Shown here in pieces: positions 39,067 to 44,682 of a stretch of 64,000 nt of DNA (position 1 is its first letter; every line of letters starts with the position of its first letter). The DNA is taken from UHGV virus genome UHGV-1375844, one strand, 5' to 3'. Position numbers and translations under genes: made by a program. The notes under the pieces are model-generated. The model made no database searches and was not told the DNA's origin. It saw nothing but the letters and a program-made list of their open reading frames with translations. This stretch comes from a virus.

Positions 39067-39205
39067 TTATCGTGGCTTTGTGCTAGGTTAAAACAGCTTT
39101 GGGGAGCTGGTGCGCTTAAGGCCTTCCAGAAAACTCAAACTAGCTGAAATAGTAGGGTCAATTAGGTATCATTCCTTTTCAAATTTAACCAAAGACTCTT
39201 ATAAA

Positions 39206-40438
39206 ATGCCTGCTTTGTTAATTCTCATAATTGGGACATTGATGATTATTTTCTGGGATGTGATTAAGGAAAACGTAGAGGTTATAGGTACGCTTGCCAC
39301 TTCACTTGCCTTTTTTGCTACTGCCTGGGCTGCTTACGAGGCAAGGCATAGTGCAAAGGCGGCAATGAAGGCGACCCAGCTGACGGCTGATTCACTTCTT
39401 GAAATGAAAAAAGCCTCTTTTAAGGAGTGGTACGGCATTTTACTTGAACAGCATAATAAATTACTTGAGGATGTTAATAAGACCTTATTGGATGACAATG
39501 AACTTAATACCAGGTTGAATATTAATGTCATAAGAGGTATTTATTATCACGTAACCAAAAATCCTGCTTACATTAAGTATATTAATCACATAATTTTAAT
39601 CCTGAATTATGTAGATAAAGACTTTTATCTGCCGTCCTCGGCGGAAAATGAAAAGAGATCTTATATAGAACAGTTGCGCAACAGCATTAGCCCAAAAGTA
39701 AGCCTGCTGATTGCTATTTTTGGCCTTAATATCGACAATAATAAAACTTATGATGCAAAGAAACTTTACAACCTTCTAAGCAAATATAACTTTTTTGAAA
39801 ATGAGCTATTTTTTGAAGTTGCAATATCAAAAGTTCATTACTTAGACACTTATGTCGCCGAGATATTTGACAAAGAATACCGAAAAGACGTTGAATTTTA
39901 TGTTGATGAAACGGTTTGTGGTCGTGCGCTCTCTTTTATCAATACGACATGCCGACACCATAGGATTACTTTCGCAGTTCAGTGGTCTTACAACAACCCC
40001 TGCCAAAAGCATTTGCTGAAAAGATTCAATGACCTACCTATGCACATGAGAAACGTCATTGGGCTGAACATGGAAAAAGCAGCCGAGAAAGTGGCTACGT
40101 TTAATTCTGAGTTGCCTGGTTTTGTCGGCTGGGAAATTAAGATTGCTAATAATAAGGTGAGAGTAATTAAGGATGAAAAAGAACTGAAAAGGCTAATAAA
40201 GCTTTACTATAAATACCCCTTTGACCCTCGACAAACTGGTATCGTGTTAACCAATGGTTTCACCAATAGATTCGCCGATGAGATTAGGAATAGTATGTCT
40301 AGCTATGCTTTACATAAAGCCTATCTAGAACTCAGCTCTAATCCGAACAAAGATCAGGTAATTGATGAGATTGTGTCAGAGGTTGAAAAAATGGTCGATA
40401 AATTTAAAACAGAACTTAATTCTTTCTGCTTTAACTGA
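39206..40438 (+). CDS. membrane-anchored protein of unknown function (two N-terminal TM helices plus ~350 aa domain); AT-rich moron
   Basis: Hydrophobic segments MPALLILIIGTLMIIFW and VIGTLATSLAFFATAWAAY; plus strand; visibly AT-rich; followed by terminator. Confidence 0.5.
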   Translation: MPALLILIIGTLMIIFWDVIKENVEVIGTLATSLAFFATAWAAYEARHSAKAAMKATQLTADSLLEMKKASFKEWYGILLEQHNKLLEDVNKTLLDDNELNTRLNINVIRGIYYHVTKNPAYIKYINHIILILNYVDKDFYLPSSAENEKRSYIEQLRNSISPKVSLLIAIFGLNIDNNKTYDAKKLYNLLSKYNFFENELFFEVAISKVHYLDTYVAEIFDKEYRKDVEFYVDETVCGRALSFINTTCRHHRITFAVQWSYNNPCQKHLLKRFNDLPMHMRNVIGLNMEKAAEKVATFNSELPGFVGWEIKIANNKVRVIKDEKELKRLIKLYYKYPFDPRQTGIVLTNGFTNRFADEIRNSMSSYALHKAYLELSSNPNKDQVIDEIVSEVEKMVDKFKTELNSFCFN

Positions 40439-41604: not shown

Positions 41605-41737
41605 TGGTGCCGGTTAACGGACTCGAACCGTTGACCTCTGGCCTAACATCGGATCGTTGTCATTGACCAGCCATGCTGTCTACCGAAGTAGAAACGATGC
41701 TTTGGCTCTCGCGCTCTACCAACTGAGCTAAACCGGC
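41605..41737 (-). tRNA. tRNA-like gene with ~57 nt insertion between D-arm and T-arm (possible pseudogene or interrupted tRNA)
   Basis: Canonical acceptor GCCGGTT/AACCGGC, D-arm TAGCTCAGTTGGTAGAGC, T-arm AACGG-TTCGAGT-CCGTT and CCA, but 133 nt long and no canonical anticodon arm found. Confidence 0.4.
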
Positions 41738-41814: not shown

Positions 41815-42533
41815 AATTTCGCAGCGGTACTGGCTTCAAAGATGAAGTTTTCCCGCAACTTGCACTTTGCGTTAGTGCCAGACGAGGCTTGCGGCTCGCT
41901 CAAATAGAGCGAAGATCTTAAACACTGCTCGGTGCTTCAGAGAGCGCCGGGGAGTCAGATCTTATTGGATGTATGGAATCATCCGTGTTGTGGCAGCTAC
42001 ATGCTAAAACCAGAGGGTATTACTATTGCCACAACGTTGAGGCCACTAAACCAGTAATGTTTGCCCAACATCTTTGTCAGTCGCTACAGCCTCTGTGGAT
42101 TCACCTGTATGATTGAAAGAAACAGTGGCCTCAACGTTGTGTGCTGGCTAACCAGGCCAGCCGGGTTACGTCGCCGATCTTCTTTAACCCAAGACAAAAC
42201 GACATAAGTAATGGAAATGACGTAACAGGATGAACGGTCGATAACTGAAACCGGGATAGGTGAATGGAATGAGGAAACCAACCGCCCATCCTGTTACTTC
42301 ATCGGAGAGGGCATGGGTGGTGCCGTATCATGCCCTCTCCTGCGTTCTGCAATCACACTCGCTCAGTGTGTCCCATTTCGGTGACGAGGCTGGAAACTGA
42401 CCTCGCTGGTGTTTGGCTTATTATGCTACTGCCAGATACTGATTGTCGTTTGCAGTTATCTTTAAACGTTCAAACAGTCGCGTACTAACGAAAACAAAGC
42501 AATCTTATACATATCATAAAAATAAGTAAATAC

Positions 42534-42839
42534 TTATCTATCGGTTATGCGTTCAGTTGATAACTTTTTGATCAGAGTCCCCTTCGAAGAGGGGGTTCGT
42601 GAGACAGTGGCGGTAAATCGCTTACCGTGGATAGTAATACTCTCGTGCTCCTTCAGTTCCCCATAGCGGATTTCCAATAGGGCGCCAAGACGCCATAGTC
42701 CATCATCGATACGCTTTTTACTGGCAAACTTTATCAGCAACCATTTCACAATAAATTGGCCTGCAGCGAATGCGCACGCAACGCCAGCTGCCGTAAAGTA
42801 GGCGACCAGCCACCAGTCGAGTGAGGTCAGTTCCGTCAT
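42534..42839 (-). CDS. membrane protein (N-terminal TM helix, 101 aa)
   Basis: WWLVAYFTAAGVACAFAAGQFIV hydrophobic segment; ATGA overlap with the upstream small ORF. Confidence 0.4.
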   Translation of the reverse strand: MTELTSLDWWLVAYFTAAGVACAFAAGQFIVKWLLIKFASKKRIDDGLWRLGALLEIRYGELKEHESITIHGKRFTATVSRTPSSKGTLIKKLSTERITDR

Positions 42840-42988
42840 TTTGGCGCCCCTGTTTCATGAACTACACGATATACACGCTTGCCTATGCGCATAGATTTTG
42901 TTTTAAGCTGCTGCTTAACCAGATGTCGATGTGCGATGAAGCCGAGGCTCGCGCCAACAATCAAAGCTAATGTGATGTATGGAATCAT
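42836..42988 (-). CDS. small membrane protein (~50 aa, below track cutoff)
   Basis: Hand-translated MIPYITLALIVGASLGFIAHRH...; start overlaps the upstream stop. Confidence 0.3.
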   Translation of the reverse strand: MIPYITLALIVGASLGFIAHRHLVKQQLKTKSMRIGKRVYRVVHETGAPK

Positions 42989-43194
42989 GAGTAAGCACCT
43001 GTTTCCGTCAGTTGTTTCAGTAATTCTCGGCCTTTTTTGGTCAACTGATAGTTCTCTGTTTTGCCCTCTGGCTCGACGTTGGCGACAAGGTTCATCCTCT
43101 CAAGTTTGGCACGCGTTTTTGGCTGCCAGTGTGCGTAGAAACACGACCATTTGCTGATTTCTCGAAGGGTGTCTCGTTCCCGCTTACTAAGCAT
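42985..43194 (-). CDS. small basic protein (~69 aa)
   Basis: Shorter start chosen where the ATG overlaps the upstream ORF stop; track lists a longer 82 aa form. Confidence 0.35.
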   Translation of the reverse strand: MLSKRERDTLREISKWSCFYAHWQPKTRAKLERMNLVANVEPEGKTENYQLTKKGRELLKQLTETGAYS

Positions 43195-43360
43195 GATCAT
43201 CATTAACCCCCTGCAACTTATCAGTAATATCAATGATGCGATAAATGCGCCCTCTTCTCTGCATGATGCCCTCTTTCACGTAATCATTGAGACAACTACT
43301 CATCACCATGCTGCCGATAACAATCCCCAACCCCAAAAAAGCAATCATCCAGCCAAGCAT
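43187..43360 (-). CDS. small membrane protein (~57 aa, below track cutoff)
   Basis: Hand-translated MLGWMIAFLGLGIVIGSMVM...; TGATG overlap with the ligase stop. Confidence 0.3.
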   Translation of the reverse strand: MLGWMIAFLGLGIVIGSMVMSSCLNDYVKEGIMQRRGRIYRIIDITDKLQGVNDDHA

Positions 43361-44682
43361 CATTCCTTGTCTCCTATGCGATCTTCCGTATCACGTAAGC
43401 AGCGCGGCCACTTCAATCGAGGGTGACGCAAACTACCGTCTGGCGTTTTCTCGTGACAGTGAACCTCTACAATGCGCCCGCGATACTTCTCCTGATTGTT
43501 CCAAATTTCATCCAGGTAACGGTGCTTTATGCCACTGGCTCGAACGACAACTCCATTCTCCAGCCGGATAACGATTTTCCCCAATGTATGTGCAAAACCA
43601 GAGTCCGGATCGCCTGGCTCGAAGTCGATAATTTCCCCGTCTTCAGAGTCTTCGTCTTTTAGCTTCCACCAGCTGCGGGAGCGCTTAAACTCATAAACAG
43701 AATCCGGATCTTTGCCCATCTCCCCTTCTTCATTGTCATCGAGGCGTTTCATAAAGCGCTCAATGAAGTCTTCATGGCTATGGATTATGTAGAACGGGTG
43801 CAAATGGATGTCCGGTGCATAGTCTTCACCGCGGGTGTTTCTGAACCATGCCACCAGCGAGGACAGGCGTTCTTTCAGCTTCATGCCCGTCTTCGCATAT
43901 TCTTTTGACTTAGCCAGAGAGCGCCATTCCGGCAAGAAGAAGTCAAAAATGTGATAGACCGCGCCGATCGCTTTTACGTTTTTCTTCCGCAGCGCGGAAA
44001 CAGACTGATTGAACGAACCTGCAGTTCCCTCTCCATCAAAGAAAATGTGTTTGTGGCCAGTGAGTCTCCCCAGCTCTAACATGGCCGGCTTTAAGTGATC
44101 GAGCGAAGTGATCGGGTTGCCTGTACGTGAAAGGAAATTAACCTCTTCCTCATCGACAATGACCTCACAAATGACGCGCAGCCCATCCAGCTTGAGGCTG
44201 CCGATCATTGGCCATTTTGCCTTCGGATTTGGCTTGAACGGATATTTGTCGCCTTTCTCCTTATATGCTGTTGCCAGCTGCACCTCGAACTTGGGAATTG
44301 GGGTTTCAAATACCTTGTTGCATAAACTTATGCCAACGCCGGCTTTCGGATCTTTGAGCAGAAAGCGGCGAAAAACATCCTGCCCATCAGCGCACATCGA
44401 GGCCACAATAGACTCAACGGCAGTGATGGCCGCATTACCGGTTAGTTCGCGTGCTGCGAGTTTCTCCAGTAACTCAACTGCCTTTTCATCGCTTGGAACC
44501 GACTGTTCCAGCGGCATGGCCACTTTATATTTCTTTACCCCGAATCGAATAAACGGGTTGAGCATCAGCGAAACCATGCTCTGTTCGAAAGCATCCATGC
44601 TGGCCAATGCCTCTTTTTTGGCATTGGTTCCCATCGTTTTAATGGCATCCAGCTTATGCTTCAAGGCGATCAATTTTTCCAT
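43360..44682 (-). CDS. ATP-dependent DNA ligase
   Basis: Adenylation motif I GSLKLDGLR and ligase fold size (440 aa). Confidence 0.85.
   Translation of the reverse strand: MEKLIALKHKLDAIKTMGTNAKKEALASMDAFEQSMVSLMLNPFIRFGVKKYKVAMPLEQSVPSDEKAVELLEKLAARELTGNAAITAVESIVASMCADGQDVFRRFLLKDPKAGVGISLCNKVFETPIPKFEVQLATAYKEKGDKYPFKPNPKAKWPMIGSLKLDGLRVICEVIVDEEEVNFLSRTGNPITSLDHLKPAMLELGRLTGHKHIFFDGEGTAGSFNQSVSALRKKNVKAIGAVYHIFDFFLPEWRSLAKSKEYAKTGMKLKERLSSLVAWFRNTRGEDYAPDIHLHPFYIIHSHEDFIERFMKRLDDNEEGEMGKDPDSVYEFKRSRSWWKLKDEDSEDGEIIDFEPGDPDSGFAHTLGKIVIRLENGVVVRASGIKHRYLDEIWNNQEKYRGRIVEVHCHEKTPDGSLRHPRLKWPRCLRDTEDRIGDKE

What the first reader, a model, noticed from the sequence alone, without database searches (positions are those of the whole stretch)
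42534..43360. Translationally coupled operon of four tiny genes, three encoding membrane proteins, downstream of ligase
Genes of about 57, 69, 50 and 101 aa overlap start-to-stop (TGATG or ATGA junctions). Three have a single hydrophobic helix and one is basic and soluble. Two are below the ORF-track length cutoff, so standard annotation could miss them; small membrane proteins of this kind often act in host takeover or exclusion.
Basis: seen in the sequence. Interest (0 to 1): 0.45.

Follow-up and report, generated by a model that had tools for sequence, protein, structure and literature searches.

The report
Four small genes after phage-plasmid ligase
Four tiny overlapping genes behind the DNA ligase of an SSU5-like phage-plasmid are real and conserved: three single-pass membrane proteins and one small winged-helix DNA-binding protein. 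They are already catalogued as proteins of unknown function, so the finding is correct but ordinary.

Summary
On the minus strand, ligase (43360-44682) is followed without gaps by g1 (58 aa), g2 (71 aa), g3 (50 aa) and g4 (101 aa). The junctions are ATGA, a 14-nt overlap, ATGA and ATGA, and each start has a Shine-Dalgarno motif. The window is an SSU5/pHCM2/pMT1-type phage-plasmid. All four ORFs stay intact in diverged relatives and are under purifying selection (pN 0.14-0.29 against pS 0.4-0.8), so the stated refutation test fails.

New details:
- g1 and g3 are paralogs, each with a GxxxG membrane helix and a basic tail.
- g4 is a membrane helix, a long helix and a beta-hairpin.

All four belong to PHROG families of unknown function and occur only in this plasmid family. 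Members are lost individually in relatives. Homologs of g2-g4 are silent in lysogeny. The lysis and Cor-like exclusion genes lie elsewhere. Function is unproven. My best guess is an accessory lytic-phase module acting at the cytoplasmic face of the inner membrane.

Of more interest is the flank. Directly downstream lies an unannotated, highly conserved structured RNA of about 500 nt. It carries a tmRNA-like tag frame (ANDNQYLAVA**) but has no recognisable tRNA-like domain.

The parts
43360..44682 (-). ATP-dependent DNA ligase (440 aa), the gene to which the small genes are coupled
   Evidence: Pfam DNA_ligase_A_M E=7.7e-13. phrog_114 E=4.7e-122. The stop codon overlaps the g1 start as ATGA.
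43187..43363 (-). g1, 58 aa. Single-pass membrane protein with GxxxG in the membrane helix. Paralog of g3.
   Evidence: phrog_4381 E=2.9e-33. KD19 2.14 at residues 7-25. Intact in 11 relatives. pN 0.14-0.22 against pS 0.60-0.74. hhalign against g3: 94.6% probability, E=7e-8. AGGAG at 43371-43375, 7 nt before the ATG.
42985..43200 (-). g2, 71 aa. Basic soluble winged-helix protein.
42836..42988 (-). g3, 50 aa. Single-pass membrane protein with a strongly basic tail. Paralog of g1.
   Evidence: phrog_6302 E=2.4e-23. KD19 2.03 at residues 1-19 and pI 11.1. Intact in 14 relatives. dN/dS 0.16-0.55, with one value of 1.08 against the L003 variant. AGGTG at 42996-43000.
42534..42839 (-). g4, 101 aa. 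Membrane helix, then a long helix, a beta-hairpin and a basic tail. Often mislabelled 'C-type natriuretic protein'.
   Evidence: phrog_4507 E=4e-50. No Pfam or NCBIfam hit. AlphaFold2 gives H6-61, E67-71 and E76-80, with pLDDT 63. pN 0.14-0.28, pS 0.6-0.8. AGGGG at 42847-42851.
42974..42988 (-). The 15-nt motif ATGATTCCATACATC, which coincides with the g2 stop and the first five g3 codons
   Evidence: 4 copies in the window within one mismatch, against 0.01 expected. The first 12 nt are identical in all relatives but one, although synonymous sites are otherwise saturated.

Best explanation
SHOWN. The four ORFs are real genes. They form the translationally coupled tail of the phage-plasmid's replication-gene string (helicase, primase, ..., ligase, g1, g2, g3, g4). 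g1 and g3 are paralogous single-pass membrane proteins. Each has a membrane helix with a GxxxG motif and a short basic tail carrying a conserved G-[KR]-R-[IV]-Y-R-[IV]-[VI] motif. g4 is a third membrane protein: a membrane helix, a long helix, a beta-hairpin and a basic tail. g2 is a 71-aa protein with a winged-helix fold. The set occurs only in SSU5-like phage-plasmids of Enterobacterales, evolves several times faster than the ligase, and loses members individually in relatives.

INFERRED. Positive-inside charge distribution puts all three membrane proteins N-out/C-in, so their conserved parts face the cytoplasm. They are made with the replication enzymes when the lytic or replicative programme is on, not in lysogeny. 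The most likely role is an accessory, non-essential one: small inner-membrane proteins that act, through helix-helix contacts and their cytoplasmic tails, on host or phage membrane-associated targets (a host-takeover type function). g2 would serve as a small DNA-binding regulator. The molecular target is unknown.
For: - Genes are real: ORFs are intact in 11-15 relatives, and pN is far below pS.
- Coupling: Shine-Dalgarno motifs and ATGA/TGATG overlaps are conserved.
- Paralogy of g1 and g3: hhalign 94.6% probability, E=7e-8. The alignment is gapless, with invariant G12, G16, Y40, R41 and T46.
- Restricted distribution. An exhaustive HMMER search with g4 found only 18 representatives among 1.84 billion proteins.
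- Faster evolution: 62-76% amino-acid identity to SSU5, pMT1, pHCM2 and E. coli relatives, against about 91% for the ligase.
- Modular loss: g1 is precisely deleted in E. coli relatives (L011, L013). Ligase, g1 and g2 are missing in L012. g4 is replaced in L014. L018 has ligase, a g3-like gene and a g4-like gene. L020 has a g4-like gene with no ligase.
- Plasmid counts by tblastn: g1 532, g2 637, g3 682, g4 657.
- Expression: in E. coli LF82 phage-plasmid Cyrano, the ligase and the g2, g3 and g4 homologs give 5.9, 6.4, 5.0 and 7.6 normalised reads in overnight LB. The repressor gives 96 (PMC9928086 S1 table).
- Topology: there is no K or R before the membrane helix, and 4-5 K/R within 15 residues after it, in g1, g3 and g4 (sequences).
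Against: - There is no direct evidence for translation, membrane insertion, topology or any phenotype.
- The g4 model has low confidence outside the helix (pLDDT 63).
- No homolog with a known function was found in Pfam, NCBIfam, PADLOC or PDB sequences.
- Tight coupling to the ligase could instead point to a role in replication.
- g2 may bind something other than DNA.
Confidence: 0.45

Rival explanations
1. Membrane tether for replication. g2 binds phage-plasmid DNA. The basic cytoplasmic tails of g1, g3 and g4 anchor DNA or the replisome (ligase) to the inner membrane. This is functionally like phi29 p16.7/p1 (comparison from my own knowledge of those proteins).
For: The genes sit at the end of the replication-gene string and are translationally coupled to the ligase. 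The tails are basic and predicted cytoplasmic. A winged-helix protein lies between the membrane proteins.
Against: Members are lost singly. The cluster and the ligase occur without each other (L012, L020, L015), which is odd for a core replication device. No DNA-binding fold is predicted in the tails. There is no sequence relation to p16.7.
Confidence: 0.12
2. Superinfection exclusion during lytic growth. The small inner-membrane proteins block DNA entry of related phages, as T4 Imm/Sp do (comparison from my own knowledge).
For: The proteins are small, membrane-bound, fast-evolving, family-specific and accessory.
Against: They are not expressed in lysogens. Only 3-9 residues are predicted outside the cytoplasm. 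The family already has a Cor-like exclusion lipoprotein next to the tail genes (SSU5_025). PADLOC gives no hit.
Confidence: 0.15
3. Lysis-timing proteins: holin, antiholin or pinholin-like.
For: The proteins are small with one membrane helix. g4 has a weak, non-significant match to a holin PHROG (phrog_2359, E=0.052, membrane helix only).
Against: SSU5 has a complete lysis cassette about 13 kb away: holin SSU5_026, endolysin 027 and Rz/Rz1 028-030. The four genes are embedded in the replication block, not next to an endolysin.
Confidence: 0.05
4. Type I toxin-like or abortive-infection membrane toxins.
For: The size and architecture of g3 (50 aa, N-terminal membrane helix, basic tail) resemble Hok-type peptides (my own knowledge of Hok).
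Against: No Hok/Gef or other toxin family hit in Pfam or PADLOC. The genes have ordinary Shine-Dalgarno sites and are coupled in an operon rather than silenced by an antisense RNA. No antitoxin is evident.
Confidence: 0.03
5. The ORFs are not genes: chance ORFs in a 3' untranslated region.
For: None beyond their small size.
Against: Intact ORFs, conserved start signals and pN far below pS across relatives whose synonymous sites are saturated. The shuffle test also argues against chance.
Confidence: 0.01

Closest known systems
PHROG families 4381, 4054, 6302 and 4507 (= SSU5_045-048 and their orthologs on pHCM2, pMT1 and E. coli Cyrano CYRAN_37-39)
   Same: Full-length, highly significant profile matches (E from 2e-23 to 4e-50). 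Same gene order after the ligase.
   Different: Nothing structural. These families have no assigned function, so membership names the genes without explaining them.
Minimal winged-helix DNA-binding proteins (the MarR/PadR-type DNA-binding domain; small viral or plasmid examples such as STIV F93 and TubR)
   Different: g2 is only 71 aa, so it lacks the extra N- and C-terminal dimerisation helices of MarR. Sequence matches to Pfam and NCBIfam wHTH families are below threshold. DNA binding is not shown.
T4 Imm and Sp, small early membrane proteins for superinfection exclusion (from my own knowledge)
   Same: Small, membrane-located phage proteins made during lytic growth. They are accessory.
   Different: No sequence similarity was detected in any library. 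The predicted topology here puts nearly everything in the cytoplasm. No exclusion phenotype has been tested.
phi29 p16.7 and p1, membrane organisers of phage DNA replication (from my own knowledge)
   Same: An N-terminal membrane anchor with a cytoplasmic part, encoded with replication genes.
   Different: No homology. No DNA-binding domain is predicted in the g1, g3 or g4 tails. The genes are dispensable in many relatives.

Membership tests
PHROG 4381 / 4054 / 6302 / 4507 (unknown function) | Significant full-length match to the family profile | tested here: met
   E = 2.9e-33, 6e-43, 2.4e-23 and 4e-50, covering essentially the whole profiles
Winged helix-turn-helix fold (g2) | Three-helix bundle with a beta-hairpin wing, superposable on solved wHTH domains | tested here: met
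MarR / PadR / HTH_45 sequence families (g2) | Score above the curated family threshold | tested here: not met
   HTH_45 scores 17.1 bits against a cutoff of 25.5. SSO5209_fam scores 18.4 against 140.
Winged-helix transcription factor (g2) | Sequence-specific DNA binding | not testable with these tools
   Needs EMSA or ChIP. A candidate site is the repeated ATGATTCCATAC motif, but its presence does not track the presence of g2.
Holin | Sits in a lysis cassette next to an endolysin; significant match to a holin family | tested here: not met
   The only hit is phrog_2359 at E=0.052, over the membrane helix. The family's holin, endolysin and spanin genes are elsewhere (SSU5_026-030).
Natriuretic peptide ('C-type natriuretic protein', the NCBI name for g4) | Match to a natriuretic-peptide family | tested here: not met
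   No Pfam or NCBIfam family at E of 1 or less. The name is carried by many NCBI records without support.
Known anti-phage defence or exclusion proteins (PADLOC) | Match to a defence-system protein model | tested here: not met
   No hit for any of the five proteins at E of 1 or less
Single-pass N-out/C-in membrane proteins (g1, g3, g4) | One hydrophobic helix of about 20 residues, with positive charges concentrated after it | tested here: met
   KD19 values of 2.14, 2.03 and 1.74. No K/R before the helix and 4-5 K/R in the 15 residues after it. Insertion and orientation have not been shown experimentally.
tmRNA (for the RNA noticed downstream, not the finding itself) | Tag reading frame that starts at a GCA resume codon after an A-rich consensus and ends in stop codon(s) | tested here: met
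   gataact-GCA AAC GAC AAT CAG TAT CTG GCA GTA GCA TAA TAA at 42418-42453 (-). ARAGORN flagged the resume consensus, but only in relaxed mode. Six tag variants of 10-11 codons occur in relatives.
tmRNA (for the RNA noticed downstream) | tRNA-like domain: acceptor stem with G3:U70, a T-arm and a CCA end | tested here: not met
   ARAGORN at default and -ps settings finds no tmRNA. Rfam gives only alpha_tmRNA at 15.2 bits against a gathering score of 50. No T-arm-like hairpin is present in the window copy. Similarity to E. coli ssrA is no higher than to shuffled sequence.

The most novel reading that the evidence does not exclude
The three basic-tailed membrane proteins and the winged-helix protein could form one complex that ties the replicating phage-plasmid genome, or its ligase-containing replisome, to the inner membrane. 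That would be a Gram-negative counterpart of phi29 p16.7/p1, made in fixed proportion to the ligase by translational coupling. A second reading, not excluded, is that operon transcription reads through into the adjacent tmRNA-like RNA (no terminator-like site lies between them on the minus strand). In that case the small genes and that RNA would be one expression unit.
Probability: 0.1. Interest if true: 0.6.

Novelty: already known. Interest (0 to 1): 0.25.

Why it matters
SSU5-type phage-plasmids are common in Salmonella (pHCM2), Yersinia pestis (pMT1), Klebsiella, Enterobacter and E. coli. The four genes were found in 532-682 PLSDB plasmids each. Their small genes are unstudied.

This work adds several practical points:
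- The micro-ORFs are real, so annotations that drop g3 or g1 should be corrected.
- The label 'C-type natriuretic protein' for g4 has no support.
- g2 is a winged-helix protein, and g1 and g3 are paralogs, which gives concrete handles for experiments.

As a discovery it is modest: conserved hypothetical accessory genes. The unannotated tmRNA-like structured RNA immediately downstream is the more promising lead from this locus.

Tried and rejected
- Pfam, NCBIfam, PADLOC and PDB-sequence searches gave no informative hit for g1, g3 or g4.
- Three word-indexed searches of 5.8 billion proteins, and one exhaustive HMMER search of 1.84 billion representatives with g4, found only members of the same phage-plasmid family. 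No distant relative with a known role appeared.
- g4 is not detectably related to g1 or g3 (hhalign probability 0.4-2.6%), despite a superficially similar G-K-R hairpin.
- I did not run a fold search on the g4 model, because its confidence is too low outside the helix.
- The lysis-cassette idea was rejected because of the separate holin/endolysin/Rz genes.
- Prophage-type exclusion was rejected because g2-g4 homologs are silent in lysogeny.
- For the downstream RNA, I looked for a tRNA-like domain with ARAGORN at default and relaxed settings. The relaxed calls place 'domains' inside the unconserved g4 coding sequence and sit among other, clearly spurious relaxed-mode calls, so I rejected them.
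- I tried pairing the T-arm/CCA element of the distant relative L016 with its 5' region and found no convincing acceptor stem.
- Local alignment of the RNA to E. coli ssrA scored no better than against shuffled sequence.
- A Y. pestis sRNA survey lists no sRNA at this pMT1 position (PMC3770706).
- Literature searches for tmRNA together with SSU5, pHCM2 or pMT1 found no description of it.

Full report
WHAT THE WINDOW IS. The 2.3 kb around the finding is 99.8% identical to Salmonella enterica plasmid NZ_CP030187 and 77% identical to Salmonella phage SSU5. It matches several hundred IncFIB 'non-mobilizable' plasmids of about 100-115 kb from Klebsiella, Enterobacter, Salmonella (pHCM2), Yersinia pestis (pMT1), Citrobacter and Escherichia. 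The window is therefore an SSU5-type phage-plasmid.

THE OBSERVATION. Everything lies on the minus strand.
- Ligase: 43360-44682.
- g1: 43187-43363, 58 aa.
- g2: 42985-43200, 71 aa. The longest ORF starts at a TTG at 43233, but phrog_4054 and all homologs begin at 'MI.LSK', which is the ATG at 43200.
- g3: 42836-42988, 50 aa.
- g4: 42534-42839, 101 aa.

The junctions are ATGA (ligase/g1), a 14-nt overlap (g1/g2), ATGA (g2/g3) and ATGA (g3/g4). Each start is preceded at 6-7 nt by a Shine-Dalgarno-like motif: AGGAG, AGGGGG, AGGTG and AGGGG. In relatives these motifs and the ATGA or TGATG overlaps persist even where the overlapping codons change.

The four ORFs tile 100% of the 830 nt. In 2000 dinucleotide-preserving shuffles the maximum cover was 91%, and cover of 90% or more occurred in 0.05%. 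g1, g3 and g4 each have one strongly hydrophobic stretch of about 19 residues. g2 has none and is basic.

ARE THEY GENES? I fetched 15 related loci: SSU5, three IMG/VR contigs, pMT1, pHCM2, and plasmids from Enterobacter, Klebsiella, E. albertii, E. coli and Buttiauxella. Wherever a homolog is present the ORF is intact, with a start codon and similar length.

Against SSU5, nonsynonymous and synonymous differences per site are as follows:

| Gene | pN | pS |
|---|---|---|
| g1 | 0.16 | 0.66 |
| g2 | 0.17 | 0.80 |
| g3 | 0.21 | 0.54 |
| g4 | 0.19 | 0.78 |
| ligase | 0.05 | 0.74 |

All four are under purifying selection. g3 is the least constrained, with dN/dS of about 0.2-0.5. The small proteins evolve much faster than the ligase: 62-76% against about 91% amino-acid identity in the SSU5, pMT1, pHCM2 and E. 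coli relatives.

WHAT THE PROTEINS ARE. All four match PHROG families of unknown function: 4381, 4054, 6302 and 4507. Nothing significant appears in Pfam, NCBIfam, PADLOC or PDB sequences.

g1 and g3 are paralogs. Profile-profile comparison gives 94.6% probability and E=7e-8 over the full length. The 13-sequence alignment is gapless across the shared length. Invariant residues are G12 and G16, which form a GxxxG motif in the membrane helix, and Y40, R41 and T46, which lie in a G-[KR]-R-[IV]-Y-R-[IV]-[VI] motif.

g4 is not detectably related to them. Its AlphaFold2 model is one long helix (residues 6-61), a beta-hairpin (67-80) and a disordered basic tail, with low confidence (pLDDT 63).

The charge distribution suggests N-out/C-in topology for all three membrane proteins. 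There is no K or R before the hydrophobic helix and 4-5 in the 15 residues after it (sequences). This is an inference, not a demonstration.

DISTRIBUTION AND MODULARITY. Searches of 5.8 billion proteins found each family only on contigs of this plasmid type. An exhaustive HMMER search with g4 returned 18 representatives out of 1.84 billion.

tblastn against PLSDB finds g1 in 532 plasmids, g2 in 637, g3 in 682 and g4 in 657. Individual loci show clean loss or replacement:
- g1 is precisely excised in E. coli relatives L011 and L013. The sequence upstream of g2 there is the same as that upstream of g1 in related plasmids, so the junction sequence GGAGAT(A/T)AAG(A/G)ATGAT is effectively repeated.
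- Ligase, g1 and g2 are absent in Klebsiella L012, while g3 and g4 are kept.
- g4 is replaced by an unrelated 138-aa gene in L014.
- Buttiauxella L015 has ligase and g2, followed by an unrelated 52-aa ORF.
- A distant relative, L018, has ligase, a g3-like gene and a g4-like gene.
- L020 has a g4-like gene and no ligase.

The genes are therefore accessory and not mutually dependent.

CONTEXT AND EXPRESSION. The cluster closes a long same-strand block: tail genes, lysis genes, ParA-like gene, helicase, primase and ligase. SSU5 has its own holin, endolysin and Rz/Rz1 genes (SSU5_026-030) and a Cor-like exclusion protein (SSU5_025) about 13 kb away. The cluster is therefore not the lysis cassette.

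In RNA-seq of E. coli LF82 carrying Cyrano, normalised overnight-LB reads are 5.9 for the ligase, and 6.4, 5.0 and 7.6 for the g2, g3 and g4 orthologs. That is at or below the local background. The repressor gives 96 (PMC9928086, S1 table). The genes are thus silent in lysogeny, like the replication genes around them. I found no data set covering induction.

MECHANISM. What is shown:
- a coupled operon tail;
- three small proteins, each with one hydrophobic helix;
- one winged-helix protein;
- the g1/g3 paralogy;
- accessory status and fast evolution;
- silence in lysogeny.

What is inferred is that the conserved parts face the cytoplasm, that the proteins are made with the replication enzymes during the lytic or replicative programme, and that they act on membrane-associated targets, with g2 as a DNA-binding regulator. 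I give this general reading 0.45.

Specific rivals are:
- a phi29 p16.7-like membrane tether for replication (0.12; weakened by the independent loss of members and of the ligase);
- lytic-phase superinfection exclusion (0.15; weakened by minimal periplasmic exposure and a dedicated Cor-like gene);
- lysis timing (0.05);
- toxin peptides (0.03).

COMPARISON WITH THE KNOWN. The genes are members of existing PHROG families and were annotated as SSU5_045-048 in 2012-era records, so their existence is already known. What is added here is the g1/g3 paralogy, the GxxxG motif, the g2 fold assignment, the modular loss pattern, and the lack of support for g4's NCBI name 'C-type natriuretic protein'.

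The annotation point is partly valid. The nearest RefSeq plasmid omits g3, other records omit g3 or g1, and Cyrano leaves g1 unannotated.

NOTICED NEXT DOOR: A CONSERVED RNA (not part of the finding, but more interesting). From the g4 stop down to about 42016 on the minus strand, the sequence is 93-99% conserved between relatives whose coding regions have saturated synonymous sites. It is present in 773 PLSDB plasmids and 246 complete E. coli genomes. In E. coli it is always on plasmids, and RefSeq annotates no feature there.

A ten-sequence alignment folds into 13 helices with 98.9% of cells paired. Eight pairs carry compensatory changes, against 0-3 when partners are slid. Several invariant G-U pairs would be A-C mismatches on the other strand. 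This indicates a structured RNA of the minus strand.

At 42418-42453 it carries gataact-GCA AAC GAC AAT CAG TAT CTG GCA GTA GCA TAA TAA, which reads A-N-D-N-Q-Y-L-A-V-A-stop-stop. That resembles the E. coli tmRNA tag ANDENYALAA, which I recall from my own knowledge and which is consistent with the ssrA sequence fetched. Rfam aligns the stretch to the tag region of alpha-proteobacterial tmRNA, but at only 15 bits.

Relatives carry ANEDTYLAVA, ANEEVYLAVA, ANENQYLAVAL and ANDTQYLAVA. In a relative too diverged for blastn to detect (L016), the tag is ANDDVVLMAA. The frame is always 10-11 codons, with no conserved start codon and with 1-2-nt indels just upstream.

However, no tRNA-like domain was found in the window copy, and there is no overall similarity to E. 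coli ssrA. By the membership test it is therefore not a tmRNA. It may be a tmRNA-derived or tmRNA-mimicking RNA. I found no description of it in the literature.

OTHER THINGS NOTICED. A tRNA-like gene at 41608-41737 has a 72-nt segment in place of the anticodon arm. A 15-nt motif coincides with the start of g3. Both are listed under 'noticed in passing'.

VERDICT. The genes are real but already catalogued hypothetical accessory genes, and their function is still unknown. Interest is low to moderate (0.25).

Noticed in passing
window 42016-42520 (-); tag frame 42418-42453 (-): An unannotated, highly conserved structured RNA of about 500 nt lies directly downstream of g4. Identity is 93-99% where coding synonymous sites are saturated. 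It folds into 13 helices, with 8 compensated pairs and G-U pairs specific to the minus strand. It carries a tmRNA-like resume consensus and tag frame, ANDNQYLAVA**. Six tag variants occur in relatives, including ANDDVVLMAA in a very diverged one. No tRNA-like domain was found and there is no overall similarity to E. coli ssrA. It is present in 773 PLSDB plasmids and 246 E. coli genomes with no annotated feature.
   Followed up: partly
window 41608-41737 (-): A tRNA-like gene with good acceptor, D and T arms and an encoded CCA, but with 72 nt where the 15-nt anticodon-arm segment should be. Rfam tRNA scores 46.7 bits; ARAGORN does not call it. It sits right after tRNA-Asn and is also present in the distant relative L020.
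   Followed up: partly
window 42974-42988 (-), 41968-41982 (-), 30124-30138 (+), 35676-35690 (+), palindrome 36392-36422: The 15-nt motif ATGATTCCATACATC occurs 4 times within one mismatch, against 0.01 expected. One copy is the g2 stop and g3 start (codons MIPYI, invariant at the DNA level in all but one relative). A second copy, about 1 kb downstream at the end of the structured RNA, is conserved in position even in distant relatives. A 12-7-12 inverted repeat of the same arm (ATGATTCCATAC-N7-GTATGGAATCAT) lies just upstream of the site-specific integrase gene, like a recombinase core site or an operator.
   Followed up: partly
L011 and L013 (E. coli plasmids), compared with window 43187-43380: g1 is precisely absent in some E. 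coli relatives. The sequence upstream of g2 there equals the sequence upstream of g1 elsewhere. The ligase/g1 and g1/g2 junctions therefore share a repeated GGAGAT(A/T)AAG(A/G)ATGAT sequence, which may mediate loss of the gene.
   Followed up: partly
window 42534-42839 (-) and NCBI records of its homologs: g4 homologs are widely named 'C-type natriuretic protein' in NCBI records. No Pfam or NCBIfam family supports that name.
   Followed up: yes
L005 (Y. pestis pMT, NC_017266) 3463-5355: In pMT1 the ligase gene is truncated at its 5' end (only residues 93-440 match) next to an IS100 insertion, while g1-g4 remain intact.
   Followed up: no
window 39110-40438 (+): A 442-aa ORF on the opposite strand, rich in K, N, I and Y. 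It lies between the tRNA region and phoH, where relatives carry different genes. It may be variable accessory cargo.
   Followed up: no
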